Below, piece by piece: positions 13,521 through 55,909 of a stretch of 64,000 bases of DNA. Position numbers and translations under genes: made by a program. A model generated the notes under the pieces. That model was not told the DNA's origin. It saw only the letters and a program-made list of their open reading frames with translations, and did no database searches. The stretch lies in contig OW818688.1 of NCBI GenBank assembly GCA_942493265.1, positions 1,218,994 through 1,282,993 on the forward strand, written 5' to 3'. The stretch comes from an uncultured Bacteroidota bacterium (GTDB lineage: Bacteria; Bacteroidota; Bacteroidia; Bacteroidales; UBA12481). How positions within the stretch are numbered: position 1 is the stretch's first letter; every line of letters begins with the position of its first letter.

Positions 13521-13566
13521 TTTCGGCAGTTGAGTGCCGGTATTTATATAATTTCCGGCAGTTGAG
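13521..13566. repeat. Two direct repeats, TTTC(C)GGCAGTTGAG, 32 bp apart, abutting the truncated ATPase remnant
   Basis: GGCAGTTGAG occurs at 13525-13534 and 13557-13566. The second copy overlaps the 5' edge of the remnant reading frame. Confidence 0.6.
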
Positions 13567-13704
13567 GCCAATTTTTGGCGTACCTATGATCAAAAGGAGA
13601 TCGACCTGATTGAGGAATCGATGGGTACGATTGCAGCATATGAGTTCAAGTGGGGCACCAAAGTTGCCGGGCCTCCCCGGGGCAGTCAGGCCGATAATTG
13701 CTAA
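13552..13704 (+). pseudogene. C-terminal ~50-aa remnant of an AAA+/DUF4143-type ATPase (PD-(D/E)xK-like tail)
   Basis: The in-frame translation after a TAA is FPAVEANFWRTYDQKEIDLIEESMGTIAAYEFKWGTKVAGPPRGSQADNC*. This matches the ...W(R/T)...EIDxI...(E)FKW tail of this ATPase family. There is no start codon and no ATPase domain. Confidence 0.6.
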
Positions 13705-16013: not shown

Positions 16014-16778
16014 TTAACGCACCACCCCTTTTCCCAGCCGCACGATGCGCAATCTGGAATTGACCATTCGAATGGAGTAGGGTAGAATCAAGGTTTCATC
16101 AACATACAGTATATCAAGTTTGTGGCAGTACTTTATGGTTTCAGGTATCCGTACCAGGGTGCCGCAATAGGCGGCGTTCAGGGTTGTCAGGTTCGACAGG
16201 TTACCGATTTCATCCGGGATTTCCACGAGGCTGTTTTTGCCGATGGTAAAAAACCTCAGACCCGATAAATTTCCGATTTCTTTGGGCAGCGTAACCAGGT
16301 CATTGTTATTGACAGATAGATTTTCGAGCTTCTTGAGGTTGCCAATGCTGGAAGGCAGAGATACCAGATCGTTATATTCCAGATACAATTCCTTGAGCTG
16401 GTGTAGATTGCCTATCTCGGCAGGCAATTTCCTCAGCCGGTTATTCTTAAACGAGATTTTTTTCAGATTGGTCAACTGTCCGATAGAGGCGGGGATGCTC
16501 GATAATTGGTTGCTGCTGACCACCAGGTTTTCCAGTTTTTTCAGATTTCCTATCTCATCGGGGAGTTTTTGCAGCTTGTTCCGGAACAGATAGAGGGTTT
16601 TCAGATTGGTGAGCGTGCCGATTTCCTTAGGCAGACTATCGAGCCGCACATTCTGGATTTTCAGCGTGGTTACGCTTTCCGGATCGGCTAATGCCTCAGC
16701 CAATGGATTGTAGGTGGAGCATGCGGTTAACAGGATGCTAACGGTAAACAACAGTCCGATAGGCGCAGCTCGTCTCAT
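16014..16778 (-). CDS. Leucine-rich-repeat lipoprotein
   Basis: About 8 tandem 23-aa LRRs (LxxLPxEIGNLxxLxxLxLxxNx). Likely start is MRRAAPIGLLFTVSILLTAC (lipobox); the ORF opens at 16826. Confidence 0.85.
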   Translation of the reverse strand: MRRAAPIGLLFTVSILLTACSTYNPLAEALADPESVTTLKIQNVRLDSLPKEIGTLTNLKTLYLFRNKLQKLPDEIGNLKKLENLVVSSNQLSSIPASIGQLTNLKKISFKNNRLRKLPAEIGNLHQLKELYLEYNDLVSLPSSIGNLKKLENLSVNNNDLVTLPKEIGNLSGLRFFTIGKNSLVEIPDEIGNLSNLTTLNAAYCGTLVRIPETIKYCHKLDILYVDETLILPYSIRMVNSRLRIVRLGKGVVR

Positions 16779-16872
16779 TACTTTTTCCGCATCTGGTAAT
16801 TTACAAATAATTTCCGGGTAATTCAACCGTCGTACCGCACCTCTTCCCTCCTCATTTTGCTGAACAGTAACC

Positions 16873-18234
16873 TTAAAACTTCATTTCGCCGATTAAGCCC
16901 GCAAAATACATCGGGAGCGACAGAAGTGAATAATCGATGATGGTGGTTTCATTATTTACACTGACAGATGCCTGCAAATGGGTGCCATAATTCGGGAGAT
17001 CGAGATTAAATCGAATGCCATTCTGTTTATGGTTGGTTCCCAAATAGACCTGCATGGATTTCAGAGTTCCTGTTTTACCGGCCTTTACTTCGACAGGGTA
17101 TATTTCATTGCCTTTTTGTAGGAGATAGTCAATCTCAGCATTTGAATTCTTTGCTTCACGCATCCAATAGTAGAGTTTTGTTTCCCTGAAAAACGGCGAA
17201 GATGCAATTAATTCCTGACCAACAAATTGCTCGGCCAGCGCCCCTTCAAAATCGGTGGCCAGATTTTTAATATCAATCAATCGTATCTGTGCCAGGTGAT
17301 TGGCAAGACCTATGTCAAAAAAAACAGGTTTAAAAGTATCGTTGTCAATATATTGAGTGATCGGCGGATTCACTGATTTTGTCTTTCGCACCAGATGGAT
17401 CACCCTGCTCATTTCCAGTTTCAGCAGTGCCTGCTTGAGCTGGGATGAGTGGACGTTTTGATCGATATTGACATATTTAACTTTTCGACCAATATTGTTG
17501 GCAACATAATGCAATGACGATTGCAGAAAATCCTGTTCCCTCCGGGTTCCATATTTTGAAAAATCATATTGCAGGGAGGTGAGGATATTGGAATGGACCT
17601 TTTCAACCTCGATGAGATTGCCGGTTTCAATATAGGTTTTTACAGCTTCCGGCATTCCGCCAATGAAAAAGTACAATCGTAAAATTTCCGATACTTTCGC
17701 GTGAATCGCTGAGCTGAAATCCTTTCCGGGCACGAAATCATGCAGGTATTGGCATAGCCCTGTTTCTCCGATTGCCGTGCAAAACTCCATAAAATTGAGT
17801 GGATACAGGTACGCGTATTCAACCCGTCCGATGGGCATCGAATAGCGCAATTCGTTGAGAGTGTGATCGAGTAGTGATCCGGCTGCAATGACATGCAGAT
17901 CCGGAATTTGTTCGTAGAAATACCGGAGAGATGCAATTGCTGTCGGGGAAGCTTGAATTTCATCAATGAAGAGCAGGGTTTTTCCGGCCAACAGCGGAAT
18001 ATTATACAGACTGGTCAATTCATTGATGATCGTGACCGGATTATTGCTTTCAAAAACCGATTGTAGATTTCGGTCCTGCTCAAGATTAACATGCAAATAG
18101 TATTCAAAATGGTTCTTGCCAAACTCATTGACAATAAATGTTTTGCCAACTTGCCTTGCCCCTCTTAAAATCAATGGTTTTCGCCTTGGGCTATCCTTCC
18201 AGGTTTTCAGGTATTCTTCTATTGATCGTTTCAT
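16873..18234 (-). CDS. AAA+ ATPase with C-terminal PD-(D/E)xK-like domain (COG1373 / DUF4143 type), paralog 1
   Basis: Walker A LRGARQVGKT, Walker B LLFIDEIQ, C-terminal AEIDYLL...PVEVKAG (D...ExK). The start at 18234 (MKRSIEEYL) is preferred because a TATCTTTG -7 box (complement of 18256-18263) lies downstream of the 18258 ATG. Confidence 0.85.
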   Translation of the reverse strand: MKRSIEEYLKTWKDSPRRKPLILRGARQVGKTFIVNEFGKNHFEYYLHVNLEQDRNLQSVFESNNPVTIINELTSLYNIPLLAGKTLLFIDEIQASPTAIASLRYFYEQIPDLHVIAAGSLLDHTLNELRYSMPIGRVEYAYLYPLNFMEFCTAIGETGLCQYLHDFVPGKDFSSAIHAKVSEILRLYFFIGGMPEAVKTYIETGNLIEVEKVHSNILTSLQYDFSKYGTRREQDFLQSSLHYVANNIGRKVKYVNIDQNVHSSQLKQALLKLEMSRVIHLVRKTKSVNPPITQYIDNDTFKPVFFDIGLANHLAQIRLIDIKNLATDFEGALAEQFVGQELIASSPFFRETKLYYWMREAKNSNAEIDYLLQKGNEIYPVEVKAGKTGTLKSMQVYLGTNHKQNGIRFNLDLPNYGTHLQASVSVNNETTIIDYSLLSLPMYFAGLIGEMKF

Positions 18235-18287
18235 TTGAATTCTATAATGCCTGATCAAAGATACACTTAATTCCTAAAATGAATTAC

Positions 18288-18365
18288 AACACTATTGGAA
18301 AATAGCATGTAGATGTCAAAAACACTATTGGATTTCGGTAAGATATGGCCGGAAACACTATTGGA
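18288..18365 (-). promoter_or_regulatory. Three exact AACACTATTGGA direct repeats at 33-bp phasing upstream of ATPase paralog 1
   Basis: Exact 12-mers at 18288-18299, 18321-18332 and 18354-18365. They lie 54-131 nt upstream of the 18234 start, adjacent to and upstream of the promoter. Confidence 0.7.
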
Positions 18366-18413
18366 ATTTAGAAATATTGAAATCTGATGAATATCTTACG
18401 TATTGATAGTTAA

Positions 18414-20264
18414 TCAGATCACCACCAGTTTTTGAGTTTTTCTTCGGTTACCCGTTTTCACGGTTGCGTAGTATATCCCCGGCTTAAGAATTCCGGCAGC
18501 ATTTATGGAACAATCGCCATGGATCGTATCCCGATAAACCATGCGGCCGCGGGAATCAATGATTTCAAAGGAGGCATCCGGGTAAGAGGGGTTGGAGAAC
18601 CTGATATTCAGTACTCCTCCGTTGCTGTTCAGCGGATTGGGAAAAATAAGCGCATCGGAGGAGTACTCATCATGTACACCGGTTCCCGAAACGATATCCT
18701 TCAGGTCCTTAATCCAGTCGTACCATTTCACGTAAATACTTGCCGCTCTCACAACCCCTTTCACCAGTTGCAGGCGGTAATCATAATGGGCCTTGCGGGT
18801 AATTTCGCCTTTGTATTCATAATCGGTATTGCAGATCACGGCAAACACCACGCTGTTGGCCGGCTTGTTTTCAAGTATCAGCGAACAGTCGCCCCCGGTT
18901 ACCGGCTGACTGTATACCGTTGTTCCATCCTTGGTGCGGTAACAGAGCTGGCACGACATGTTTTTCCCGATCGGCTGGAAATTTACCGTAACGGTGTCAC
19001 CTTCAATGAACAGCGGAATCTGGTTGGCGCCCGACCATCCCGGCGTGGTACGGTATTCAGGTGTGAGGAGGCCCATGCCGTCATTGGTGGTTTTGGCGTA
19101 TGGCGTGGCGAGCCATACCTCCGGATTCAGCCACGAAGGCTGCCATTCAGCCTTGATGCTGCTTTTAAAATTCGAGTCGAGCAGCTTTTTAATCGCACCG
19201 GTCCATTCCTTCATATCGAGGAGGGCCTGCTTGGCCCTGTATTCGGTGATAAGCCTGCGGGTTTGCGCAGCGCCCAGTGTGTCGGCAATGCCCTTCAGCA
19301 CGCGCGAGGGGCAGTATCTCCAGATCCAGGCGATGCTGCCTGTACCCAGTGTTTGTCCGAGAAATACCGGAAAAGTATTGCCATACTGGTTGCCGCCGAG
19401 CAAGTTACGCCAGGTGCAAAGCTGCTGACTGCCGTTGTAGCGGTTTACCCCTTCGGCGGATGGTCCGCCGAAGGAGCCATCCTGCAGCCATCCGCTGTAG
19501 CACTCGATGGGCATGAAGGGGGCGATGAACGGACAGGCGTTCAGGAATCCCATGCTGCTGTAATCACCCGACCTTCTGGATTCAGCCTCCTGCTGCAGCC
19601 AGGTGTTTCCGCCCTCATGAAACCAGGCGGCATTCCTGCACCCCGGGAGATCGGCCAGTATGGAGTGGATACCTTCATGAACCATCGCTCCCATCTGAAA
19701 ATTCCGGTCGCTGTAATTACAGGCAGGATCGAAACAGTACACGGGATAATAGGAGGCCAGTACCATCGGCCAGTTCTGACCATTGTACCAGATGGCGCTT
19801 TGCCAGCCTCCCAGTTCGGTGTTGGATGCATTATCAGTACAAAGGCCTGATCCAAAGAGATAGATGGCGCTGCGATATCCGTATTTAACTCGTTTGTCAG
19901 GCGGCCAGCCCATGGAATCGCGGAAATAGGCAAATTCAGCATTCATGCGTTCCAGCATCGGGGTGATGGCGGCGGAGGTTACCAGGGGATTGGCCAGGGG
20001 GCCCCACCGAAAGGTCCACCAGCCTGACGATTGCGAGCCCACAACCTGCGGACAATCATTTAAATCGCGCGATGGCATTTCCAATGCCGGAAACTCTTCC
20101 CGGAAATTGTAGTCGAGCGTGGGCTCATAGGCGGGCCAGCTGTATGGCATACCTGATACATTGCCAGATGTGGCAACCTCCTTCAGGGCGGGTTTCGTTT
20201 GTCCGTTCAGCGACAGGACCGGGACGAGGCAGCAAACAGCCGCAAGTAATCTGCAGAATTTCAT
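18414..20264 (-). CDS. Secreted T9SS-sorted protein with an HExxH motif (putative metallohydrolase; family unknown)
   Basis: 616 aa. Signal peptide, then GAMVHEGIHSILADL (HExxH) and WFHEGGNTW. The C-terminal ~80 aa (LIFPNPLNS...IYYATVKTGNRRKTQKLVVI) has the Por/T9SS CTD pattern. Confidence 0.6.
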   Translation of the reverse strand: MKFCRLLAAVCCLVPVLSLNGQTKPALKEVATSGNVSGMPYSWPAYEPTLDYNFREEFPALEMPSRDLNDCPQVVGSQSSGWWTFRWGPLANPLVTSAAITPMLERMNAEFAYFRDSMGWPPDKRVKYGYRSAIYLFGSGLCTDNASNTELGGWQSAIWYNGQNWPMVLASYYPVYCFDPACNYSDRNFQMGAMVHEGIHSILADLPGCRNAAWFHEGGNTWLQQEAESRRSGDYSSMGFLNACPFIAPFMPIECYSGWLQDGSFGGPSAEGVNRYNGSQQLCTWRNLLGGNQYGNTFPVFLGQTLGTGSIAWIWRYCPSRVLKGIADTLGAAQTRRLITEYRAKQALLDMKEWTGAIKKLLDSNFKSSIKAEWQPSWLNPEVWLATPYAKTTNDGMGLLTPEYRTTPGWSGANQIPLFIEGDTVTVNFQPIGKNMSCQLCYRTKDGTTVYSQPVTGGDCSLILENKPANSVVFAVICNTDYEYKGEITRKAHYDYRLQLVKGVVRAASIYVKWYDWIKDLKDIVSGTGVHDEYSSDALIFPNPLNSNGGVLNIRFSNPSYPDASFEIIDSRGRMVYRDTIHGDCSINAAGILKPGIYYATVKTGNRRKTQKLVVI

Positions 20265-46641: not shown

Positions 46642-48969
46642 CTAGATATTTAACCATTTCTGATTCTCTTTCAATTCCCAGATTTTATCACCGTAAACCA
46701 CCCGGCAGGGGAGACCTGCCCTGGAATGGATCACCGCACTGGTCAGTTGCCCGTTGTTCCAGCTCATTTCCACCTCAAATCCGCCACGGGCGCAAAGGCC
46801 GGTGACCTTGCCTGCAGGCCATGCTTTGGGCAGTGCGGGCAGCAGATGGATGGATCCCGTGTGGCTTTGCACCAGCATCTCGCAGAAGCCGGCTGTAGCA
46901 CCAAAATTGCCATCAATCTGGAACGGCGGATGCGAGTCGAAGAGGTTCGGATAAACTCCGCCGCCGCTGTCGCCGTAGATGGTTTCTGTTCCGTGGACCA
47001 CGTTGAGCAGGCTGCGCAGCATGGTGTAGGCGTGATCGCCGTCCCACAGCCTGGCCCAGAAATTGATTTTCCAGGCGCGGCTCCATCCGGTACTTTTGTC
47101 GCCGCGGGCCTGCAGGGAAACGCGGGCGGCTTCGGCCAGTTCAGGGGTGGTTGCCCGGGTGATCTGCCGTCCGGGATACAGGGCGAACAGATGGGAAACA
47201 TGGCGATGAGTATCCTTTGGATCGTCCTTGTCTTCTTCCCACTCCTGCAATTGTCCCCAGTGCCCGACCTTCGGCTTGAGCAGCTTGTCGCGCAGTCCGG
47301 CAATGTGATCCCGGAATTCCCTGTCATCACCCAGCACATCTGCGGCTTCAATCGTGTTGGTGAAGAGGTCGAAGATGATCTCCTGGTCGTATGTCACACC
47401 TTCTTCGGCGGGACCGTGCTCGGGCGACCATCCATCGGGTGTGACGAGCGTGCCGTCAGGCCGGCGTTTCAGGTGATCGTCCCAGAACTGGCACACTTCT
47501 TTAAGAACGGGATAGGCAGTTGTGCGGAGATACTCCTTATCCCGGCCAAAAGCGAAATGCTCCCACAAATGTTGTGCATACCAGGCACTCCCGGGCGGAT
47601 TCCATTTCCAATACGAAACACCACACGCGTTGTTCATCGTTTGCACGGTCCAGCCCCTGACTTTGCCATATTTTCGTTGGGTGTTTTTCCTGCTGACCTC
47701 CCGGATGCTCGCAGTATAGTCGATAAACGGCTTGTGGCACTCAGCGAGATTGGCCGGTTCAGCTGGCCAGTAGTTCATTTCGACGTTGATATTTGAGTGG
47801 TAGTCACCGGCCCAGGCGGGTTCGTTGCTGTCGTTCCATACCCCCTGGAGATTGGCGGGCAAAGATCCCGGGCGCGAGCAACCAATCAGCAGGTAGCGTC
47901 CATACTGGCAGAACAGGGCTTCGAGATCCGGGTCGGCCATGGAGTTTTTTGTGTAGTCATCCAGCCTCGCCAGCGTGGTTCGGGCCAGCTGGCTGGGAGC
48001 CGTGGTTCCCACCTCAAGGGAAAAACGGTGAAACAACGATTGATAATCTTTCACATGCCGGTCCTGAAGCCTGGCTGCACTCTGCCTGGCTGCGGCATCC
48101 ACCCGCCTGGTTACGGCGGCATGGGGATGAATGCCCAGCCACTGTTTGGTGTGATCCTGAATGAAGTTTGTGCCTGCCCCGAGTATCAGCGTCAGGCTGT
48201 CGCACTGGTCGAAGGCCAGGCTGCTGGTGGGTGTGGCAATATCCCATGGGTTTTTGGCTGATGCATCGTCTTTCACGGCGATGGCGCCGTTTTTGTTCAG
48301 CACGAGCAATTGGGCTTCATATTCAAACCCGTTTTCCAGCCTGCCCACCGAGCTGATCCTGTTGCCTTCGGCGGCAATCCGCGCCCTGTGCATGTCGGCA
48401 AGCTGAACGCGGCCGGTATAGGCCGCGGGCTTGTTCGCCGTAAGATGGACCACAATAACACCGTCAGGATGACTGGCGAAGGCAGTGCGTTGATAGCGCA
48501 CCCCATTGTAATCGTAGGTTACCTGATGAACGGCGCGATTGATGTCGAGCTCCTGCCGGTAGCGGGTCACCCCGGAGAAATCATGACCAAGATGGATGAA
48601 GATATCACCAAACGCCTGATAGGCGCCCAGGTCCTGACCTTCATCATCCAATCCCTCAACAGCCATGCGGGTTCCCGACCAGAGACTGATCTCATTGAAC
48701 TGTATCCGCTCGATCGCGGTGCCGCCAAAGAGCATCGCCCCCATGGGCCCGTTGCCGATCGGATAGGCCTCGGTCATCCAGGCTTCTGCCGGCCGGTCGG
48801 ACCAAAGGCACAATTTTCCGGAGGCTTTCGCCCCGACAGGGATTTCACCCGCACGGGCAGTCATTCCGGTTAGCGGACTAATGCCCAGAGCGGCCGTTGC
48901 CATGCCGGCGGAATACAAAAAGTGACGCCGGGAGATGGGGTTTTCCTGTTTGTGTGTTTTTTTAGTCAT
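46642..48969 (-). CDS. GH95 alpha-L-fucosidase (Tat signal)
   Basis: [17 protein letters not shown] signal. [33 protein letters not shown] and [21 protein letters not shown] are hallmark GH95 blocks. Confidence 0.9.
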
Positions 48970-49063
48970 GCTGGTAATCGATTTCGGACGGTGCTTTCTT
49001 TGTGAAAATACGACTAAACTTTTCCCGTTTGACGCTAAAACATTTGGAACTTGTCTTCTTTCT

Positions 49064-49117
49064 GTTTACAGAAATTATTTAATATATAATATTTAAGTTA
49101 ACAGAAATTTATTTATC
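49064..49117 (+). promoter_or_regulatory. Two GTT(T/A)ACAGAAATT direct repeats at 33-bp phasing upstream of ATPase paralog 2
   Basis: ACAGAAATT occurs at 49068-49076 and 49101-49109. The second copy ends 4 nt before a TATCTTTG -7 box (49114-49121). ATG at 49142. Confidence 0.6.
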
Positions 49118-49141
49118 TTTGATCTTGTTCAACCAAACCCG

Positions 49142-50437
49142 ATGGATAAGAATAAATTATTCGGCATACTAAACGACTGGAACTACTGGGATAAGCCGGT
49201 TACGGAGTTTTTCCCGAGGGAGGAGTACCAGAAGAAAATCAATTCATACCTGGCAACCGGTGAGGTTATCGTACTGAAAGGTATCCGCAGGTCAGGAAAA
49301 TCAACACTGCTAATCAACCATATACGGCATCTCACTGGCACGGGAGTGGATAAAAAGGAGACACTCTTCGTGAATTTTGAAGACCCCCGTTTCGACGGAG
49401 TACTGAACAGCGAACTACTGGAACAAATTTTTGAGGTTTACAGGGAATTTGTCAACAACGAAACAAAACCTCATATTTTTCTGGATGAAGTTCAGCATGT
49501 TGCTCAATGGGAAAAATGGGTACTCTCCGGTTATGAGCTAAAAAGGGCGCATTTTTATGTTACCGGCTCATCTTCAAAACTCCTTAGCCGAGAATTTGGC
49601 ACTGCCCTGAGCGGACGGTTTCTTTCTATCACTGTTTTCCCGCTTAGTTTCGGGGAGTACCTCCGGTTTAAGCTTCAGCCAGCACCGGATAAAATTTCGA
49701 TCATCACACAGAAATTAGTTTATAAAATAGCTTTCAATGAGTACATCAAAGGGGGCGGTTTCCCTAAAGTATGTTCTCTTGACGAGGATTTGAGGCGGCA
49801 GGAAATCATTATGTATTTCGAAACCATCATTCTTAAAGATATTGTTGCCCGCTACAACCTCAAAAACTACGACAGCGTTAAAAAAGTAGCACTTTATCTA
49901 ATTTCTAACATTGGAAAACCCTTTAACCTGAACAAGGTAAGAGTTTCACTTACACTTTCGTACGACCTGGCAGACAAGTATTTCGAATACCTGAAAGATA
50001 CTTTTCTGTTGTTTGAAGTATTTCAATACGACCACTCAATTAACCGTCAATTTGCCAATCACCGTAAAGTTTATTGCATCGACAATGGAGTATTGACTTA
50101 TACTTCTTTCAGGGTTTCAGAAGATTATGGCCGCTACCTTGAAAACCTTGTTTTCATTGAATTGCTGCGACAGGGGCATGAGGTATATTTCCACCAGGGG
50201 AAAAAAGAATGTGATTTTATAATCAAGAAAGGGCTAACGATCACTCAAGCCATACAGGTATGCCGCACCTTGCAGGATGAAGAAACCAAAAAGCGGGAAC
50301 TGGAAGGATTAAAAGAAGCTCTTGAAACATATGGGCTGATTGAAGGAGTGATACTTACTGAAGACGAAGAATACGAAATATCTTTCCAGGGACGCCGGAT
50401 CATCGTTCAACCGGTTTGGAAATGGTTGCTGGAATAG
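49142..50437 (+). CDS. AAA+ ATPase (COG1373 / DUF4143 type), paralog 2
   Basis: Walker A LKGIRRSGKST and Walker B IFLDEVQ. The C-terminal ECDFII...AIQVC segment is a divergent nuclease-like tail. Confidence 0.85.
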   Translation: MDKNKLFGILNDWNYWDKPVTEFFPREEYQKKINSYLATGEVIVLKGIRRSGKSTLLINHIRHLTGTGVDKKETLFVNFEDPRFDGVLNSELLEQIFEVYREFVNNETKPHIFLDEVQHVAQWEKWVLSGYELKRAHFYVTGSSSKLLSREFGTALSGRFLSITVFPLSFGEYLRFKLQPAPDKISIITQKLVYKIAFNEYIKGGGFPKVCSLDEDLRRQEIIMYFETIILKDIVARYNLKNYDSVKKVALYLISNIGKPFNLNKVRVSLTLSYDLADKYFEYLKDTFLLFEVFQYDHSINRQFANHRKVYCIDNGVLTYTSFRVSEDYGRYLENLVFIELLRQGHEVYFHQGKKECDFIIKKGLTITQAIQVCRTLQDEETKKRELEGLKEALETYGLIEGVILTEDEEYEISFQGRRIIVQPVWKWLLE

Positions 50438-50441
50438 TTGG

Positions 50442-50627
50442 TCAGCTTAATTTAATAATCGGATCAAAGAATATCCCGCTGAGTACGGCATTATCGCCGC
50501 GGACCTGGTCAATCCGGAACTTGGCGGATTTATTATATGAATAGATCAGGTACCGGCCACCCTTGAAATTACTGATGATCTTTACAGGCGCGATTTGGTT
50601 CAAAGTCTCCGCATCCATCATCTCCAC
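50442..50627 (-). CDS. Small hypothetical ORF (possibly non-coding or a gene fragment)
   Basis: 61-aa ORF downstream of GH29 with no recognisable motif, squeezed between convergent genes. Confidence 0.2.
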   Translation of the reverse strand: MEMMDAETLNQIAPVKIISNFKGGRYLIYSYNKSAKFRIDQVRGDNAVLSGIFFDPIIKLS

Positions 50628-50650
50628 GGCTGCTTAAAATATGATAATAT

Positions 50651-52147
50651 TTATAATGGTTTACGGCGAACAATCTTAATAGCATAAGCATGCTCACAGG
50701 GTTTTGTTTTCGGGGTTTCTATAATTAGCCCTTCTTTTGTCATCTCCCATTTGAGCTCCTTGCCATCACCCAGCATGGTTATGGAAGTGATTTCCGAGGG
50801 ATAGAGTCCGGCCCATGTTTTCCCCTTGGGGGCAAAGCTTTTTATGAGCATCTTCTCGCCGGGCCAATCCAGAGCGATCACATAAAGATTGTCATCCTTA
50901 ACGGTAAACCTGAAATCCTGTCCGGTATAGATCAGATCGTTCTTCTCAACATTTTCACCGGCGCCGCCCAGTTTTGTCGGTCCCTCACCTGCAATTACCC
51001 AAGCGGAAGTGCCATAGATAGCTTCTCCATTCATCCTAAGCCATTCACCCATTGCCAGAAGCCGTTGCCTAGCTTCTTCCGGAATGGTACCATCCGGCTT
51101 AGGGCCTACGTTGAGCAGCAAGTAACCGTTCTTGCTGACACGATCCACCAGGTTATCAATCAGATTGTCCACCGATTTAAACCCAAGACCTTTAACATAT
51201 CCCCATCCTTGTCCATCATCAATTGAGGTGTCGGTTATCCATTCGTAATAGGTTAGTTCACCTTCCTGACCCTGTTCGTAGTCAACCAAGCCGGTTCCGG
51301 GCGGCAAATCATGTCCTTTATAACTGACCACCACTTCTTTTCTATTCTTAACGGCCCAATTGTAATAATTGGCCAGCATTTCCTTCTTGTAAGATTCGGC
51401 AATCAGTTCGAGACCGAAATCAAACCAGATGAAATCAGGCTCGTAGAGGCCGATAACCTCAGTAATTTTGTTCTGCCATTGCTCCAGAAACGCTTTTGAC
51501 GGCCGTTCACCCGGCTCATGGATTGGGCCGTATAGGCTTGAATATTTTGGATCACCGCAATCGTAGCGCTTATCCCAGGTTGGGAAGTAGAACCACTCCT
51601 CAGCATGATGAAAGGCCGTGAGGAATTTCATATTATGATTCCTGATTGCTTTTGACAATTCCCCTACCACGTCGCGTTTCGGACCCATTTTCACCGCATT
51701 CCATTCGGTATATTTTGTGTTCCACATCGCAAATCCATCGTGATGCTCCGCTACCGGACCCGCAAACCTGGCTCCGGCCTTTTCGAACAGGTCAGCCCAC
51801 TCCTCCGCGTTGAACTTCTCACCGGTAAACATGGGGATAAAGTCCTTGTACCCGAAATCCTCCAGTTTGCCATAAGTAGCTTCATGATATTTGCGCTGCG
51901 GGCTTGCAGGATTCACGTAAACCTGGTTGGCATACCAGGTTCCGTTAGGACCTTGCGCCGGAACCGAATATACTCCCCAATGGGTGTAAATACCGAACTT
52001 TCCATCCCGGAGCCATTGTGGGGTCATAAATTTGTTCAGAGATTTCCAGGTCGGCTCATAAACTTCTTGTGCTTCGACTGGAAATAATGGTATCAATTGC
52101 AATAGGATCGACAACCCTATGAGCGAATATAACTGATTCTTTTTCAT
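50651..52147 (-). CDS. GH29 alpha-L-fucosidase
   Basis: Signal peptide. KFGIYTHWGVYSVPAQG and AGPVAEHHDGFAMWNTKYTEWNAVKMGPKRDVV are typical GH29 blocks. Confidence 0.9.
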   Translation of the reverse strand: MKKNQLYSLIGLSILLQLIPLFPVEAQEVYEPTWKSLNKFMTPQWLRDGKFGIYTHWGVYSVPAQGPNGTWYANQVYVNPASPQRKYHEATYGKLEDFGYKDFIPMFTGEKFNAEEWADLFEKAGARFAGPVAEHHDGFAMWNTKYTEWNAVKMGPKRDVVGELSKAIRNHNMKFLTAFHHAEEWFYFPTWDKRYDCGDPKYSSLYGPIHEPGERPSKAFLEQWQNKITEVIGLYEPDFIWFDFGLELIAESYKKEMLANYYNWAVKNRKEVVVSYKGHDLPPGTGLVDYEQGQEGELTYYEWITDTSIDDGQGWGYVKGLGFKSVDNLIDNLVDRVSKNGYLLLNVGPKPDGTIPEEARQRLLAMGEWLRMNGEAIYGTSAWVIAGEGPTKLGGAGENVEKNDLIYTGQDFRFTVKDDNLYVIALDWPGEKMLIKSFAPKGKTWAGLYPSEITSITMLGDGKELKWEMTKEGLIIETPKTKPCEHAYAIKIVRRKPL

Positions 52148-52151
52148 GTTA

Positions 52152-53717
52152 TTACAGTTTCTTTATAATTGTTTCTTTGAAGTCTTGCTGTTTGGCATCA
52201 GGTGCGGGAGAGGTTTTACACTGATCCAGCAAAGCCTTCATTTCCTGCACGATCTCCGGGTGTTTGAAATAGAGATTCACGGTTTCTCCCGGATCGGATT
52301 CGAGGTTATATAGCTGTGCCGGGGCATCCGGTGCATTGTCGTTGAGCATGAAGGGTTTAAGGTCAGGATTGTTGTAGTTGTTCCCGCCGGATCCGCGATG
52401 GTCGAGGTATTTCCAGGGTCCCTTGCGGATGGCGAGGGCCAGACTGATGGTTTGGTGCAGGGTGTATGGGCGGACTGCGCTGTCGCCCGCTTTGCCGAGC
52501 AGTATGGGAAGAATGTTGTAGCTGTCTTCGGCAGAGCCATCAGGCAGTGCGGCGCCGGTCATCGCGGCACACGTGGCCATGATGTCGGTGAGACAGACCG
52601 TTTGATCACTCGTGCTGCCGGATGCGATTTTTCCCGGCCAGCGAACGATGAAGGGCACCCGGTGTCCGCCCTCCCACTGATCGCGCTTCACCCCTCGCCA
52701 GGGCCTTGCGCCGTCATGGTTATAGTCAGCGCGCATGTGAACCACGCTGGTGACTTCCGGACCGTTGTCGCTGGAAAACATCACCACGGTATTTTCCGCC
52801 ATTCCAAGCCGATCCAGAGCCTTCATCAGTTCGCCGATAATGTAATCGAGTTCATGGATGAAATCCCCGTGGGGTCCGGCTTTCGTGCTGCCCTGAAACT
52901 GCTTTGATGCGAAAGAGGGCAGATGCACCGCATTCATGGAGTGGAAGAGGAAGAAGGGCTTATCCGGCTGGCTTTTCGCATGTTCACCGAGAAATTCAAG
53001 GCTCTTTTGCAGGAAAACCCGATCCAGTTTTTCCAGGTCATAGTCCGGCGCGATCATGCCGTCGCGGTTGTCCTCGGAATAAGGGTGTTTGGGCAGGTTC
53101 GACTTGTTGAGCATCCCTGTGGGCGGCACCGGAATCCGGTCGCCCTCGATGAAGGCATACAGAAAATCGGTGGCCGGACAGCAGGCTGTGCCGAAGAAGC
53201 TGTCGAATCCGCGATGTACCGGAGCATCCGGAATGGCGCGCGAGTAATCGATCATTTTTACGCCTTCAACACCCCCTTGCGTGATGCGCTGCCCTTCCTT
53301 GTCGAAGAAACTCAGGCCGACATGCCACTTGCCGGTCATGGCCGTGGTATAGCCCTGATTACGAAGCATCTGCGGCAGGGTCAGCTGATCCTCTTTGATT
53401 AAACAGGGCCCGCCCACACCGGCGAAGACCCCTTTATAAGGAATGCGGAATGCCATCCGGCCGGTGAGCAGACTGTACCGGCTGGGAGTGCTTACCGTTG
53501 ATGGAGAATGGGCGTCGGTGAACCGCATCCCCTGCCGTGCCAGCCGGTCGAGGTTAGGCGTGGCAACTCTGGATTCGGCATTGTAGCAGCCAACATCGCC
53601 ATAGCCGAGGTCGTCGGCCAGGATCATGATGATATTGGGTTTTATCGGGTTTGCCCGATCCTGTGCTACAAGTGACAGGGGGGTAAGGGCCAGGGTGGTG
53701 AGAAGGGTTGATTTCAT
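52152..53717 (-). CDS. Sulfatase (S1 family), Ser-type active-site motif
   Basis: PNIIMILADDLGYGDVGCYN. The active-site box is VSTPSRYSLLTGR, i.e. S-T-P-S-R instead of C-T-P-S-R. Confidence 0.85.
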   Translation of the reverse strand: MKSTLLTTLALTPLSLVAQDRANPIKPNIIMILADDLGYGDVGCYNAESRVATPNLDRLARQGMRFTDAHSPSTVSTPSRYSLLTGRMAFRIPYKGVFAGVGGPCLIKEDQLTLPQMLRNQGYTTAMTGKWHVGLSFFDKEGQRITQGGVEGVKMIDYSRAIPDAPVHRGFDSFFGTACCPATDFLYAFIEGDRIPVPPTGMLNKSNLPKHPYSEDNRDGMIAPDYDLEKLDRVFLQKSLEFLGEHAKSQPDKPFFLFHSMNAVHLPSFASKQFQGSTKAGPHGDFIHELDYIIGELMKALDRLGMAENTVVMFSSDNGPEVTSVVHMRADYNHDGARPWRGVKRDQWEGGHRVPFIVRWPGKIASGSTSDQTVCLTDIMATCAAMTGAALPDGSAEDSYNILPILLGKAGDSAVRPYTLHQTISLALAIRKGPWKYLDHRGSGGNNYNNPDLKPFMLNDNAPDAPAQLYNLESDPGETVNLYFKHPEIVQEMKALLDQCKTSPAPDAKQQDFKETIIKKL

Positions 53718-53726
53718 CGATGCAGA

Positions 53727-55664
53727 TTAATCTTTTATAAATTTTCTGACCTCAATGTGCTCAGCTGTTTTTACTTTGACCACATAAAATCCATCAGGCA
53801 ATCCGGATACATCTATTTTAGCCGATCTCTCAGCCGTTTTGGTTATCAGGAGGGTTCCATTCAAACTGTATATCTCGGCAATGGTTTTACCGAAACCGTA
53901 TGTTTGCACATTCAGCACGTCAATTGCTGGATTTGGATACACCAGAAGTCCGATTGCGCTGATTTCAGAATCAGTAATCCCCGATGGCAATTTCGAACCC
54001 CTCAGATTGATCTCCGCAATTGAGGTTCTCATATCCGAAAGGCTCCCGTCGCCTAACCAGGAATTGATGCACGAAAACTTCAGATATCTTCCGGGCGTAT
54101 TTGCAAACAGTACATATTGAGCGAGTTCAGTATAAAAAAAGGTTCCCGATGCAACCGGTGTTCCCCATTCCATGCCATCGGAACTTAAATAGACTTTGTA
54201 TTCAGCCACCCGTCCTTCCCAAGGGGCAACCGTGTTGGAATTCGCTGTATAATGGAATTCATTGATCAGGTATTCCTGGCCCAGATCGATGATCATTTCA
54301 TGCGGTCGGGCAAAAACATTACCCCACTGAACATGATAATAGGTGCTTGTGTTTCCATCGAAAGCTTTAGTCCCCTGAAAACCTGTTTGTGAAGGAGGAG
54401 CTGAAACCAGCCGCCAGTCTGTTTGCGGGATTTCCGGTAACCGACTGGCAGGTTCGGGAGCGGTTATCGTAAAGCTGATCCGGTCAGTGCCCGCAAATTG
54501 GATACCGGTGACTTCAATGCCGGATGCCCGGCCATCCCACCATTTCGTATCTGGTTTTGAATCAGGAGTGAATGATTTTCCGGGACGATACACATCTCCA
54601 ATATTTCCCCGGTTGGTGGCCGATTTCTCCAGTTCAAACCTTCCGTCGGCCTGCTCAATGGAGTTCCGGTAGTGTTTTAGAGGGGTCATATCCGAAAGCC
54701 GGTTTGAAGTAAAAACCTTGGAATCGGTATGCCAGATCAGTAACCCAAGATCGGCGGGGAAAAGTGAATTTCCGATGGTCGACTTTTTACGGGCCTCGAT
54801 GGTAAAGAATTCGAATGGATCGTATGGATTTCGCAATACCACAATGCTGTCACCGTCAGCTTTTAAGGTTATCGTTGTGGTTCCTGCTTGGGGCTCAAGA
54901 GCCATTCCCCATTTATATTGGGCCAGAAAGGGTCCGCCGATGGGCTCAACATCGGGCAGACCTCCCGACATCAGGCAGTAAAAACCGGTTCCGCCGGAAT
55001 GTGCGGCGCCGTCATCGGTATCATAAGTATCTGGAAACCCAAAAATTCCATGACCCGATTCGTGGAGGGTCATAAATAGATTTACCGGCGTGGTATCCCA
55101 GGGGGATTTCAGGACAGATCCGTAAATCGTGGTCACTTTTACCCCGTTGGACAGGGTCCAGTTCGGACCGTGGGAAGCCCCAACCCCCAGGGGTCCCCAT
55201 TTGGAGCTGATCACCATCACCGATGCCAGTCCGCCCTTCCACGATTTGTCGAAACTATCGTCGGTAATACTCAATGACCGCCAGTCATACTGCGGATTAT
55301 GCGTAATGATCCATTCCAGCGCATCTTTCCAGAGCAGAATTCCCTCTTGCCAGGTAATTGATTCATAATAGGTTGAAGGCTGAGGTGCCGTATAGAAAAA
55401 AATATCATGGGTAAAGTCGAAATTTCTTCTGGATTGCTCATACCAGTATTTTCTAAAGCTTCGTGCAGCCCCCTCTTCCTGGTAAGTCATACCGTTGATC
55501 AGGCTGTCGAGCCTTGCCGGGGTTACCGATGCCGGCACATCCGGATAATCTATATAAATGGCAATCCCCTTATACTTTGCGTGAGCATCCGTCTGGCTAA
55601 CAGCCTCACGGGTAATTGGCAGGAGAAGCAATCCTGCAATAATCAGCGAGTGTATTGTTTTCAT
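53727..55664 (-). CDS. Secreted M6 (InhA)-like zinc metalloprotease with discoidin (F5/8 type C)-like domain and T9SS CTD
   Basis: LHESGHGIFGFPDTYD matches the M6 HExxHxxGxPDxYD signature. GTKAFDGNTSTYYHVQW looks discoidin-like. The C-terminus LLVYPNPAIDVLNVQ...FYVVKVKTAEHIEVRKFIKD is a T9SS CTD. Confidence 0.7.
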   Translation of the reverse strand: MKTIHSLIIAGLLLLPITREAVSQTDAHAKYKGIAIYIDYPDVPASVTPARLDSLINGMTYQEEGAARSFRKYWYEQSRRNFDFTHDIFFYTAPQPSTYYESITWQEGILLWKDALEWIITHNPQYDWRSLSITDDSFDKSWKGGLASVMVISSKWGPLGVGASHGPNWTLSNGVKVTTIYGSVLKSPWDTTPVNLFMTLHESGHGIFGFPDTYDTDDGAAHSGGTGFYCLMSGGLPDVEPIGGPFLAQYKWGMALEPQAGTTTITLKADGDSIVVLRNPYDPFEFFTIEARKKSTIGNSLFPADLGLLIWHTDSKVFTSNRLSDMTPLKHYRNSIEQADGRFELEKSATNRGNIGDVYRPGKSFTPDSKPDTKWWDGRASGIEVTGIQFAGTDRISFTITAPEPASRLPEIPQTDWRLVSAPPSQTGFQGTKAFDGNTSTYYHVQWGNVFARPHEMIIDLGQEYLINEFHYTANSNTVAPWEGRVAEYKVYLSSDGMEWGTPVASGTFFYTELAQYVLFANTPGRYLKFSCINSWLGDGSLSDMRTSIAEINLRGSKLPSGITDSEISAIGLLVYPNPAIDVLNVQTYGFGKTIAEIYSLNGTLLITKTAERSAKIDVSGLPDGFYVVKVKTAEHIEVRKFIKD

Positions 55665-55705
55665 ATGTTGGGCTCAAGGTAGGAGATAATCCGAATGCCT
55701 GTATG

Positions 55706-55736
55706 TATCAAATTGGTAGGAATGATTACTAAATTA
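55706..55736 (-). promoter_or_regulatory. Conserved 31-bp operon-leader motif, copy 4 (upstream of the protease / sulfatase / GH29 operon)
   Basis: Minus-sense TAATTTAGTAatcattcctacCAATTTGATA, 42 nt upstream of the ATG at 55664 and 4 nt from the IS-flanking repeat array. Confidence 0.55.
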
Positions 55737-55740
55737 TCTT

Positions 55741-55840: not shown

Positions 55841-55909
55841 TATTCTAAGATAAAAACAAGTTTTTTCTTAGGTATTTTTAAAAAACATTGCCACAATTTC
55901 CTTCTACCT

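What the first reader, a model, noticed from the sequence alone, without database searches (positions are those of the whole stretch)
18288..18365. Each intact DUF4143-type AAA+/nuclease-like ATPase paralog carries its own private direct repeats at exactly 33-bp phasing just upstream
Seen directly:
- Paralog 1 has three exact AACACTATTGGA 12-mers at 18288, 18321 and 18354 (33 + 33 bp).
- Paralog 2 has GTT(T/A)ACAGAAATT at 49064 and 49097 (33 bp).
- Paralog 3 has TATC(NN)GATAAAA at 62152 and 62185 (33 bp).
- The repeat sequences differ between paralogs, but the phasing (three helical turns) and the position next to a shared TATCTT(T)G(N)ATC -7-like box are the same.
- The truncated copy at 13552-13704 is also immediately preceded by or overlaps a GGCAGTTGAG pair 32 bp apart. 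That is what an internal deletion from operator to C-terminus would leave.
Established knowledge: these COG1373 proteins (AAA+ core plus a PD-(D/E)xK-like tail; D...ExK is visible in paralogs 1 and 3 and in both remnants) are abundant multi-copy genes of unknown function in Bacteroidota.
Inference: the repeats are paralog-specific iteron-like binding sites, i.e. autoregulatory operators or cis sites on which the cognate ATPase oligomerises. I am not aware of this architecture having been described.
Basis: partly seen in the sequence, partly recalled or inferred. Interest (0 to 1): 0.7.

Follow-up and report, generated by a model that had tools for sequence, protein, structure and literature searches.

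The report
Phased operator repeats of DUF4143 ATPases
Genes of a very common but uncharacterised ATPase-nuclease family (DUF4143, also called PDC-S01) often carry two to five copies of a lineage-specific recognition sequence of about 20 bp, spaced 33 bp apart beside their promoter, in bacteria and archaea alike. The protein most likely binds these sites to control its own gene, which gives a first experimental handle on what it recognises.

Summary
All quoted repeats are at the stated coordinates. Each of the three motifs is conserved, at the same 33-bp spacing, upstream of orthologues that lie in unrelated genomic contexts, while the spacers between the motifs have diverged.

In a survey of 77 family loci from many phyla, the best upstream direct repeat was spaced exactly 33 bp in 34 loci. 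Shuffled sequences and neighbouring intergenic regions gave a flat spacing distribution (Fisher p about 1e-9 to 1e-11).

A motif-first metagenome scan found the paralog-1 repeat pair directly upstream of a family gene in 11 of 16 hits. DPANN-archaeal relatives of paralog 2 keep the same palindrome and spacing, there abutting a TATA box.

The sites are pseudo-palindromes of 16-22 bp that abut or overlap the host's core promoter element. The protein models as an Orc1/Cdc6-like AAA+ domain, a winged helix and a PD-(D/E)xK domain.

The best reading is that these are lineage-specific autoregulatory operator arrays bound cooperatively by the gene's own product. Binding itself is inferred, not shown. 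More distant subfamilies on Firmicutes plasmids have one or two palindromes spaced 39-40 bp, so 33 bp is not universal. I found no prior description.

The parts
18354..18365 (-). Paralog-1 operator site 1 (distal), TCCAATAGTGTT. With flanks it reads AAATTCCAATAGTGTTT.
   Evidence: Conserved in L001, L009, L002 and 11 metagenome loci.
18321..18332 (-). Paralog-1 operator site 2, TCCAATAGTGTT, 33 bp from site 1.
18288..18299 (-). Paralog-1 operator site 3 (proximal), TCCAATAGTGTT. It ends 24 nt upstream of the -7 box.
18370..18381 (-). Degenerate half-phase copy TTCAATATTTCT, 16 bp upstream of site 1. L001 and L009 have TTCAATAATGCT at the same place.
   Evidence: Weak evidence: 4 mismatches.
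18256..18263 (-). Bacteroidota-type -7 promoter box TATCTTTG of paralog 1.
   Evidence: Conserved as TA(t/c)CTTTG in orthologues. The consensus TAnnTTTG is from my own knowledge.
16873..18234 (-). Paralog 1 gene (453 aa): AAA+ core, lid, winged helix, PD-(D/E)xK-like domain.
   Evidence: Pfam AAA_14 + DUF4143. PADLOC PDC-S01, E = 3e-143. AF2 model with pLDDT 89.9. Foldseek top hits are Orc1/Cdc6.
49059..49074 (+). Paralog-2 distal operator, the palindrome TTTCTGTTTACAGAAA.
   Evidence: Conserved in L025, L026 and L027 and in the archaeal loci L131 and L136.
49092..49107 (+). Paralog-2 proximal operator TTTAAGTTAACAGAAA, 33 bp from the distal site and 6 nt before the -7 box.
49114..49121 (+). 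-7 promoter box TATCTTTG of paralog 2.
49142..50437 (+). Paralog 2 gene (431 aa), AAA_14 + DUF4143.
62149..62164 (+). Paralog-3 distal operator, the palindrome TTTTATCACGATAAAA.
   Evidence: Conserved in L010, L013, L017 and L021.
62182..62197 (+). Paralog-3 proximal operator TTATATCCTGATAAAA, 33 bp from the distal site and 3 nt before the -7 box.
62201..62208 (+). -7-like promoter box TATCTTGC of paralog 3.
62234..63601 (+). Paralog 3 gene (455 aa). DNA homology to copies carried on conjugative elements spans only 62129-63521.
13524..13566 (+). Pair of CGGCAGTTGAG repeats (13524-13534 and 13556-13566), 32 bp apart, abutting the gene remnant. Possibly a relic operator.
   Evidence: No comparative support was obtainable.
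13567..13656 (+). C-terminal remnant of a DUF4143 / PDC-S01 gene (…FWRTYDQKEIDLIEE…EFKWG).

Best explanation
The repeats are lineage-specific operator sites for the product of the downstream gene. Each site is a pseudo-palindrome of about 16-22 bp: an A-rich arm, a specific core and a T-rich arm.

Two to five sites lie 33 bp apart centre to centre, about three helical turns, so they face the same side of the DNA. The most proximal site abuts or overlaps the host's core promoter element. That element is the -7 box in Bacteroidota, the -10/-35 hexamers in sigma-70 bacteria and the TATA box in archaea.

The ATPase reads the sites with its DUF4143 region, meaning the winged helix and possibly also the PD-(D/E)xK-like domain. 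Protomers or dimers on neighbouring sites contact each other through the AAA+ module. The complex covers roughly 70-100 bp and competes with the transcription machinery. The result is negative autoregulation of a potentially toxic ATPase-nuclease.

Because regulator and operator travel as one unit of about 1.4 kb, the cassette stays self-controlled in any host.

Shown: the sites, their phasing, their conservation and their linkage to the gene. Inferred: who binds them, the sign of regulation and the oligomerisation.
For: 1. Footprinting. Each motif is kept at 32-33 bp spacing upstream of orthologues with different neighbouring genes, while the spacers diverge. This holds for paralog 1 relatives of 80-89% identity, for paralog 3 relatives inside conjugative elements and for paralog 2 relatives of 74-90% identity.

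2. Family survey of 77 loci from many phyla:
- 33 loci have a repeat pair matching at 11/12 positions or better. Of these, 24 are spaced exactly 33 bp, one each at 32 and 34, and two at 66.
- The best spacing is 33 bp in 34 of 77 loci.
- Shuffles give a flat distribution.
- In the control set of 149 intergenic regions, 5 have such a pair at 33-34 bp. Of these, 2 are the same divergent intergenic region as the ATPase gene, 1 belongs to a second family paralog and 1 to another AAA ATPase.
- Fisher p is 1e-9 to 8e-12, and the binomial p against shuffles is 2e-41.

3. Family position weight matrix (PWM). The matrix TAAAATAACCTTGTATTTTATC holds 13.3 bits.
- Adjacent hits are 33 bp apart in 32 of 43 cases.
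- Hits are 20-fold enriched in the 220 nt upstream of the gene on the gene strand.
- The matrix correlates 0.74 with its own reverse complement.
- Identity between adjacent units is 0.74 in the motif and 0.45 in the spacer.

4. Motif-first scan. 11 of 16 exact paralog-1 pairs in metagenomes lie 60-110 nt upstream of a homologue of 51-67% identity. Nine of those 11 have a third copy 32-33 bp further on.

5. Cross-domain conservation. DPANN-archaeal paralog-2 relatives (53-56% identity) keep TTTC(T/G)GTnnACAGAAA twice at 33 bp. The proximal site is 1 nt from a TTTTATAA box about 26 nt before the ATG. No host factor is plausibly shared between Bacteroidota and DPANN archaea.

6. Spacing is independent of the promoter. 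The spacing between sites is constant, whereas the gap to the promoter box varies from 3 to 35 nt within the paralog-1 clade and from 1 to 6 nt in the paralog-2 and paralog-3 clades.

7. Capacity to bind DNA. The confident model has a winged helix at 229-306. The best structural matches are archaeal Orc1/Cdc6 on origin DNA, ORC subunits and MalT.

8. Specificity signal. The winged helix is the most diverged domain between the paralog-1 and paralog-3 clades (identity 0.14 against 0.32 overall), yet it is as conserved as the rest within each clade. Across 35 loci, motif similarity covaries with the DUF4143 half (PD-(D/E)xK domain partial r = 0.30, p = 0.001; winged helix r = 0.15, p = 0.025) but not with the AAA+ core or lid.

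9. Privacy. There are three motifs in one window with no cross-occurrence. Adjacent paralogs in L027 and in L092 each have their own motif.
Against: - There is no binding or expression data; the identity of the binder is inferred.
- 41 of 77 surveyed loci lack a clear phased pair, and 14 have no PWM hit.
- More distant plasmid-borne members show other layouts. Enterococcus and Monoglobus have two palindromes 39-40 bp apart. Listeria has a single 30-bp palindrome. Acinetobacter has no clear pattern.
- The covariation test does not single out the recognition helix: residues 248-291 give partial r = 0.04, p = 0.29.
- Partial Mantel tests are known to be liberal when the data have phylogenetic structure.
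- In paralog 1 the proximal site ends 24 nt upstream of the -7 box. That position could as well serve activation as repression.
- The invariant D369/E382/K384 residues raise the question of why the protein's own operator is not cleaved if the nuclease-like domain touches it.
Confidence: 0.6

Rival explanations
1. The cognate protein does bind the array, but regulating the gene is secondary. On this view the array is the protein's native assembly or 'home' platform, like an iteron or an origin recognition box. An ATP-dependent oligomer is nucleated or parked there as part of its main job: sensing foreign DNA, licensing the nuclease, or moving or maintaining the gene cassette.
For: - The fold resembles Orc1/Cdc6, and ORC-type matches lead the structure search.
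- The 33-bp register is rigid and independent of promoter geometry.
- There are up to five copies in some loci.
- The unit of promoter plus gene, about 1.4 kb, appears in many unrelated contexts, including conjugative elements.
- Orphan arrays without a gene exist.
- The conserved nuclease catalytic residues imply a function beyond repression.
Against: - The sites occur only at the 5' end and abut the core promoter in three different transcription systems. That placement is what regulation predicts.
- No second array or inverted copy lies downstream or elsewhere in the window.
- No integrase, Rep protein or target-site duplication is linked to the unit.
Confidence: 0.17
2. The sites are bound by a different trans factor, either a host regulator or an unrecognised small co-transferred product, and not by the ATPase.
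For: - No direct evidence identifies the binder.
- Palindromic operators are typical of small helix-turn-helix repressors.
- Small ORFs are sometimes called over the operator region, for example 75 aa in L017 and 39 aa in L001.
- The recognition-helix covariation test was negative.
Against: - The motif follows the protein clade across unrelated genomes, phyla and domains.
- The conserved DNA unit contains only this one gene.
- The small upstream ORFs are not conserved between clades.
- Three paralogs in one genome would need three separate host factors.
Confidence: 0.1
3. The repeats are tandem promoter elements read only by RNA polymerase. In sigma-70 hosts the unit carries TTGTAT, and exactly 17 bp downstream the TAAAAT of the next unit. 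The array would then be a stack of promoters that gives a mobile gene expression independent of its context.
For: - The family matrix gives 33 = 6 + 4 + 6 + 17 bp, which is ideal -35/-10 geometry.
- The proximal site is usually preceded by a TATAAT-like hexamer.
Against: - The conserved bases extend well beyond the hexamers (ACC…TTTTAG) and vary by clade.
- Control promoters in the same loci show no such arrays.
- In Bacteroidota and archaea the motifs do not resemble the local promoter elements, yet they keep the 33-bp spacing beside a single -7 or TATA box.
Confidence: 0.05
4. The repeats are chance matches or neutral relics of a 33-bp tandem duplication.
For: The paralog 2 and 3 pairs in the window are imperfect and lie in AT-rich sequence.
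Against: - The spacers have diverged while the motif and the spacing are kept in lineages down to about 50% protein identity and across domains.
- The statistics exclude chance.
Confidence: 0.01

Closest known systems
Lrp-family autoregulatory operators, e.g. Ss-LrpB of Sulfolobus solfataricus (PMC1802622)
   Same: The regulator's own control region carries three similar, regularly spaced, semi-palindromic boxes. Each box is bound by a dimer, binding is cooperative, and about 100 bp of DNA is wrapped. The layout is the same as the three 33-bp-phased sites of paralog 1 (3 x 33 is about 100 bp).
   Different: - The protein here is not an Lrp/AsnC regulator. It is a 450-aa protein with AAA+ ATPase, winged-helix and PD-(D/E)xK domains.
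- The register is a rigid 33 bp, kept across Bacteria and Archaea.
- Wrapping and cooperativity are untested here.
Archaeal Orc1/Cdc6 and origin recognition boxes (PDB 2qby, 2v1u)
   Same: - These are the best structural matches to the paralog 1 model.
- They share the AAA+, lid and winged-helix order.
- They bind sequence-specifically to repeated boxes next to the protein's own gene.
   Different: - There is no sequence-level membership: Pfam gives AAA_14/DUF4143, not Cdc6.
- The TM-scores are low (0.27-0.31).
- The sites here are direct repeats beside a promoter, not inverted boxes flanking a DNA-unwinding element.
- There is an extra nuclease-like domain.
- No origin features were found.
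Plasmid iterons with autoregulating Rep initiators
   Same: Private direct repeats lie next to the gene for the protein presumed to bind them. The sequence is specific to the lineage, and the unit of repeats plus gene moves horizontally.
   Different: - Classical iterons are about 17-22 bp and lie near-contiguous, about two helical turns apart, inside an origin (my own knowledge).
- Here there are 2-5 sites at 33 bp, the gene is not a Rep gene, and the copies are chromosomal and carried on conjugative elements.
ATPase transcription factors with repeated boxes: MalT (a STAND ATPase; PDB 8bob is among the hits) and the bacterial enhancer-binding proteins NtrC and PspF
   Same: A large P-loop ATPase with a DNA-binding domain oligomerises on several phased sites upstream of a promoter. 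PspF and NtrC also autoregulate (my own knowledge).
   Different: - Those proteins are activators of other operons and respond to effectors.
- They have no nuclease domain.
- Their sites are not private to each paralog's own gene.
Dedicated repressors of defence loci (e.g. RptR, PMC12255303; BrxR- and CapW-type regulators)
   Same: Palindromic operators in the promoter of a defence gene or candidate defence gene keep it under tight control.
   Different: There the regulator is a separate small protein. Here the single-gene cassette appears to regulate itself through its effector protein.

Membership tests
AAA_14-DUF4143 ATPases (COG1373; PADLOC candidate defence system PDC-S01) | N-terminal AAA_14 P-loop domain | tested here: met
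   Pfam PF13173, E = 1e-25 to 3e-33 in all three paralogs. The Walker A sequence GxxGxGKT/S and the DE(I/V)Q motif are invariant.
AAA_14-DUF4143 ATPases (COG1373; PADLOC candidate defence system PDC-S01) | C-terminal DUF4143 domain with a PD-(D/E)xK signature | tested here: met
   Pfam PF13635, E = 4e-18 to 2e-36. D369 and K384 are invariant and E382 is conserved in at least 90% of sequences. The family is listed as PD-(D/E)XK with unknown function in PMC3424549.
AAA_14-DUF4143 ATPases (COG1373; PADLOC candidate defence system PDC-S01) | Match to the PDC-S01 profile HMMs | tested here: met
   PDLC04788, E = 3e-143 (paralog 1). PDLC04787, E = 4e-119 (paralog 2). PDLC04786, E = 4e-183 (paralog 3). 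The remnant matches PDLC04789, E = 2e-11.
AAA_14-DUF4143 ATPases (COG1373; PADLOC candidate defence system PDC-S01) | Anti-phage activity | not testable with these tools
   PDC systems are predictions made by 'guilt-by-embedding'. Most, including PDC-S01, await validation.
Autoregulatory phased operator array (Lrp-like layout) | Two or more similar sites in the regulator's own control region | tested here: met
   Three sites for paralog 1 and two each for paralogs 2 and 3. Two to five sites in 36 of the 78 surveyed loci with usable upstream sequence.
Autoregulatory phased operator array (Lrp-like layout) | Spacing of a whole number of helical turns, conserved in relatives | tested here: met
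   The best spacing is 33 bp in 34 of 77 loci, and 32 of 43 adjacent PWM hits are 33 bp apart. Spacing is 32-33 bp throughout the paralog-1 clade.
Autoregulatory phased operator array (Lrp-like layout) | Sites overlap or abut core promoter elements | tested here: met
   The proximal site lies 3-6 nt from the -7 box in paralogs 3 and 2. It lies 1 nt from the TATA box in archaea. In sigma-70 hosts the sites interleave with -35/-10-like hexamers. In paralog 1 the gap is 24 nt, reaching the -33 region. The promoters are inferred from consensus sequences, not mapped.
Autoregulatory phased operator array (Lrp-like layout) | The sites are bound by the product of the adjacent gene and change its transcription | not testable with these tools
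   Only indirect evidence exists: co-inheritance across contexts and domains, a predicted winged helix and domain-level covariation.
Plasmid-type iterons / replication origin | The adjacent gene encodes a Rep-family initiator | tested here: not met
   Pfam and NCBIfam give only AAA_14/DUF4143. There is a sub-threshold RFC hit at 21.6 bits against a cut-off of 471.
Plasmid-type iterons / replication origin | Near-contiguous repeats about two helical turns apart, with the same repeats as inverted copies or in a DNA-unwinding region | tested here: not met
   The spacing is 33 bp with unrelated spacers of 11-21 bp. There are no further copies elsewhere in the window.
Archaeal Orc1/Cdc6 initiators with origin recognition boxes | Sequence membership in the Cdc6/Orc1 family | tested here: not met
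   There is no Pfam or NCBIfam Cdc6 hit. The similarity is structural only: 2qby_A, E = 3.8e-6, TM-score 0.27-0.31.
CRISPR-like array | Many identical repeats of 23 bp or more with unique spacers, together with cas genes | tested here: not met
   There are 2-5 copies of a conserved block of 12-22 bp. The position upstream of one gene family is fixed. No cas domains appear among the neighbouring genes examined.

The most novel reading that the evidence does not exclude
DUF4143 / PDC-S01 proteins would be a previously unrecognised class of sequence-specific, Orc1/Cdc6-like ATPase-nucleases. Their native DNA substrate would be the 33-bp-phased array in front of their own gene.

An ATP-dependent oligomer would wrap about 70-100 bp of this array. 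That would give a self-contained expression switch that does not depend on the host, and it would explain how a single-gene cassette can spread between Bacteria and DPANN Archaea and multiply into many non-interfering paralogs per genome.

Release from, or remodelling of, this 'home' complex, for example by competing foreign DNA or a change in nucleotide pools, would be the trigger that frees the nuclease.
Probability: 0.2. Interest if true: 0.85.

Novelty: new variant of a known kind. Interest (0 to 1): 0.68.

Why it matters
PDC-S01 / DUF4143 is reported as the fourth most common 'defence' call across prokaryotes, with about 39,000 instances in one survey (PMC12988326). It was the single most frequent locus in rumen genomes (PMC13356809). 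Despite this, nothing is known about what the protein binds or does.

A conserved, lineage-specific DNA motif at a fixed register in front of each gene has several consequences:
- It predicts that the protein is a sequence-specific DNA binder.
- It supplies the cognate DNA for gel-shift, footprinting, structural and reporter experiments.
- It offers a natural set of orthogonal protein-operator pairs, three of them in this window alone.
- It suggests how dozens of paralogs can coexist in one genome without cross-talk.
- It suggests how a one-gene cassette stays controlled after transfer between hosts with different transcription machineries.
- It gives annotators a cis-signature for finding true start sites and relic copies of these genes.

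Tried and rejected
Searches and tools that gave nothing:
- An exact-protein contig look-up for paralog 1 found nothing.
- A nine-sequence alignment spanning all subfamilies was too diverse to seed a genome scan. A narrower alignment (A2) was used instead.
- A PDB sequence search gave no hit.
- Rfam gave no family anywhere in the window, and the sites lie upstream of the inferred promoter boxes. An RNA element is therefore unlikely.
- Viral-contig scans for the paralog 2, paralog 3 and remnant repeat pairs gave 0 hits. The remnant motif occurs once in 137 loci, so its operator status stays open.
- Literature searches found no description of these repeats. Terms used were DUF4143, COG1373, PDC-S01, AAA_14/PF13173/PF13635 and guilt-by-embedding.

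Ideas considered and rejected:
- Transposon ends: no second array and no inverted copy downstream.
- Replication origin or iterons: no Rep gene and the wrong spacing.
- CRISPR-like array: too few and too short repeats, and no cas genes.
- Terminator of the upstream gene: the motifs are A/T-rich, are not GC hairpins, and travel with the downstream gene rather than the upstream one.

A weaker result than hoped: a covariation test restricted to the putative recognition helix (residues 248-291) was negative. The domain-wise version points to the whole DUF4143 half of the protein.
Full report
**Anatomy in the window**

The window carries three intact AAA_14 + DUF4143 genes:
- paralog 1, 16873-18234 on the minus strand
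- paralog 2, 49142-50437 on the plus strand
- paralog 3, 62234-63601 on the plus strand

All three match the PADLOC candidate defence family PDC-S01 with E-values of 1e-119 to 1e-183, each through a different sub-model. A fourth, C-terminal fragment lies at 13567-13656.

Read on the gene strand:
- Paralog 1 has TCCAATAGTGTT three times, spaced 33 + 33 bp. The last copy ends 24 nt before a TATCTTTG box.
- Paralog 2 has two 16-bp palindromes, TTTCTGTTTACAGAAA and TTTAAGTTAACAGAAA, 33 bp apart and 6 nt before TATCTTTG.
- Paralog 3 has TTTTATCACGATAAAA and TTATATCCTGATAAAA, 33 bp apart and 3 nt before TATCTTGC.

The shared box fits the Bacteroidota -7 promoter element TAnnTTTG (my own knowledge). 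None of the three motifs occurs anywhere else in the 64 kb. No Rfam family matches in the window.

**Conservation in relatives**

Close relatives were located in public assemblies.

Paralog 1 relatives of 89%, 82% and 80% identity sit between entirely different neighbouring genes. All keep TCCAAT(A/G/T)GTGTT-like boxes at 33-bp intervals and the same -7 box, while the intervening 21 nt are unrelated.

Paralog 3 relatives of 90-92% identity lie inside CTnDOT-like conjugative elements. They sit between the coupling-protein and relaxase genes, or next to IS1595 and TIR genes. DNA homology to the window covers only 62129-63521, which is the promoter plus the gene. The TTTTATCnnGATAAAA pair at 33 bp is retained.

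Paralog 2 relatives of 90%, 85% and 74% identity, again in different contexts, keep TTTCTGTnnACAGAAA twice at 33 bp. A more distant AAA_14 gene adjacent to one of them has its own motif, GTAAnCCATTAC, three times at 32 bp.

Most tellingly, DPANN-archaeal members of the paralog-2 clade (53-56% identity; the sources name them Nanoarchaeia and Woesearchaeota) carry the same palindrome twice at exactly 33 bp. The proximal copy is 1 nt from a TTTTATAA box about 26 nt upstream of the ATG. That is the geometry expected for an archaeal TATA box on a leaderless gene (the promoter rule is my own knowledge).

**Family-wide survey**

A genome scan returned 80 loci from Bacteroidota, Verrucomicrobiota, Proteobacteria, Chlamydiota, Spirochaetota, Omnitrophota and others. 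They are 36-61% identical to paralog 1. For the 180 nt upstream of 77 of them I scored the best 12-nt direct-repeat pair over all spacings from 14 to 70.
- 33 loci reach 11/12 or better. Of these, 24 are spaced exactly 33 bp, one each at 32 and 34, and two at 66. The best spacing is 33 bp in 34 of 77 loci.
- Dinucleotide shuffles reach 11/12 in 5% of trials, with a flat spacing distribution.
- Among 149 other intergenic upstream regions from the same loci, five have such a pair at 33-34 bp. Two of these are the same divergent intergenic region as the ATPase gene, one belongs to a second family paralog, and one belongs to another AAA ATPase carrying the family motif.
- Fisher p is 1e-9 uncorrected and 8e-12 after removing the family-linked controls. 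The binomial p against shuffles is 2e-41.

An EM-derived matrix, TAAAATAACCTTGTATTTTATC (13.3 bits), hits 63 of the 77 upstream regions.
- Adjacent hits are 33 bp apart in 32 of 43 cases.
- Hits are 20-fold enriched in the 220 nt before the gene.
- The matrix correlates 0.74 with its own reverse complement, so the sites are 20-bp pseudo-palindromes.
- Adjacent units are 74% identical in the motif and 45% in the spacer.

**Testing from the motif side**

Scanning metagenomes for TCCAATAGTGTT-N21-TCCAATAGTGTT gave 16 loci.
- In 11 loci, a paralog-1 homologue of only 51-67% identity starts 60-110 nt downstream on the same strand. Nine of the 11 have a third copy 32-33 bp further on.
- Three are arrays with no gene behind them.
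- Two are unrelated: a coding repeat and a satellite.

Within this clade the spacing between sites is always 32-33 bp. The gap to the -7 box ranges from 3 to 35 nt. The register therefore belongs to whatever binds the sites, not to promoter geometry.

**What binds**

The motif travels with the gene through unrelated genomes, phyla and both prokaryotic domains. The conserved DNA unit holds only this one gene. The simplest binder is therefore the gene's own product.

An AlphaFold model of paralog 1 (pLDDT 89.9, pTM 0.90) shows five parts:
- an AAA+ core (1-155)
- a helical lid (156-228)
- a winged helix (229-306, with helices 231-246 and 263-275 followed by a beta-hairpin)
- a PD-(D/E)xK-like domain (307-410)
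- a small beta C-terminus

D369 and K384 are invariant and E382 is conserved in at least 90% of sequences.

The best Foldseek matches in the PDB are archaeal Orc1/Cdc6 bound to origin DNA, ORC subunits, MalT, RFC and STAND proteins. The probabilities are high but the TM-scores are low, so this is a resemblance in architecture, not family membership.

Between the paralog-1 and paralog-3 clades, which have different motifs, the winged helix is by far the most diverged region (14% identity against 32% overall). Within each clade it is as conserved as the rest of the protein.

Across 35 loci, motif similarity covaries with the PD-(D/E)xK-like domain (partial r = 0.30, p = 0.001) and with the winged helix (r = 0.15, p = 0.025) after controlling for the rest of the protein. 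It does not covary with the AAA+ core or the lid. A narrower window on the putative recognition helix showed nothing. The specificity determinants therefore seem to lie in the DUF4143 half, but which surface reads the DNA remains open.

**How it most likely works**

The sites sit where a bound protein would compete with transcription initiation:
- In Bacteroidota they lie between or next to the -33 and -7 elements.
- In archaea they abut the TATA box.
- In sigma-70 bacteria the array is interleaved with the promoter. The TTG(T/A)AT in one unit lies exactly 17 bp upstream of the TA(A/T)AAT arm of the next unit, because 33 = 6 + 4 + 6 + 17.

I therefore favour negative autoregulation by cooperative binding of dimers or protomers on same-face sites three helical turns apart, bridged by the AAA+ module. 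The nearest described layout is the Lrp family. Ss-LrpB binds three regularly spaced palindromic boxes in its own control region, one dimer per box, and wraps about 100 bp (PMC1802622).

Binding, the sign of regulation and oligomerisation are all inferences.

**Limits**
- About half of the surveyed loci show no clear phased pair.
- Distant plasmid-borne members (28-43% identity to paralog 2) differ. Enterococcus gilvus and Monoglobus have two palindromes 39-40 bp apart before a TATAAT. Listeria seeligeri has a single perfect 30-bp palindrome next to a TAAAAT. Acinetobacter, Moraxella and Sulfurimonas have no convincing pattern.
- So 'palindromic operator beside the promoter' is the general theme, and the rigid 33-bp register characterises the subfamilies found in this window.

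**Novelty**

The family is listed as a PD-(D/E)XK group of unknown function (PMC3424549). It was added to PADLOC as an unvalidated defence candidate (bioRxiv 10.1101/2024.01.29.577857). Recent surveys rank it among the most abundant 'defence' calls (PMC12988326, PMC13356809). None of the papers retrievable here mentions upstream repeats or autoregulation.

Phased autoregulatory operators are a known kind of system. Four things appear to be new:
- finding them as a conserved signature of this family
- the effector protein acting as its own regulator
- the fixed 33-bp register across domains
- the diversification into private motifs

I rate the finding as a new variant of a known kind, with interest 0.68.

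Noticed in passing
window 55751-57491: An IS110-family transposase gene (56076-57071, minus strand; Pfam DEDD_Tnp_IS110 + Transposase_20) is flanked by inverted arrays of about 90 nt. Each array is three 32-bp units (CCCTCGGAGAGGTG(G/T)CATC…), and the arms are 77-96% complementary. This is unusual for IS110, which typically lacks long terminal inverted repeats (my own knowledge). The units may be phased transposase-binding sites, or a repeat array into which the element inserted.
   Followed up: partly
L010-L024 (e.g. L010 768-6122); window 62129-63521: The paralog-3 clade is cargo of CTnDOT-like conjugative elements. It is inserted antisense between the coupling-protein and relaxase/MobC genes, or beside IS1595 and TIR genes. 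One identical 431-aa protein is indexed in 146 blocks of the assembly collection. The window copy has lost that context.
   Followed up: partly
window 63521-63601: Paralog 3 is 455 aa, whereas its relatives of 85-92% identity are 427-431 aa. DNA homology stops at 63521. The last 24-28 codons are therefore a read-through into unrelated sequence, probably marking a cassette boundary or a rearrangement.
   Followed up: no
L076 1097-2851: A different AAA ATPase (Walker A sequence HAPRQTGKTT) near the surveyed family gene has a pair of family-type motifs (rc of ACC(C/T)TGTA(T/C)TTTAGAC) 33 bp apart in its upstream region. The motifs are in the opposite orientation relative to the gene.
   Followed up: no
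L115/L118 (same sequence) and L127: These loci hold orphan TCCAATAGTGTT arrays (two or three phased copies) with no family gene downstream. They may be relics left after gene loss, analogous to the window's remnant at 13524-13656.
   Followed up: partly
L142 (Listeria seeligeri pLIS51, upstream of the gene at 407); L140 (Enterococcus gilvus pCR1A): Plasmid-borne relatives in culturable Firmicutes carry large palindromes with the same half-site (TTTGAAG…CTTCAAA) next to a -10 box. In Listeria this is a single perfect 30-bp palindrome. In Enterococcus there are two sites 39 bp apart. 169 Acinetobacter plasmids also carry a family member. These are convenient systems for experiments.
   Followed up: partly
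window 18370-18381 (minus strand): A degenerate copy, TTCAATATTTCT, lies 16 bp (half a phase) upstream of the first paralog-1 site. A similar copy sits at the same position in the orthologues of 89% identity.
   Followed up: partly
window 16014-16826, 18414-20264, 46642-61997: The paralogs' neighbours are ordinary Bacteroidota genes: an LRR protein, a protein with a T9SS C-terminal sorting domain, GH95 and GH29 fucosidases, and a 1496-aa multi-domain hydrolase (SASA, amidohydrolase and M24 peptidase domains). They are not defence islands. This fits the reported weak association of PDC systems with other defence genes.
   Followed up: no
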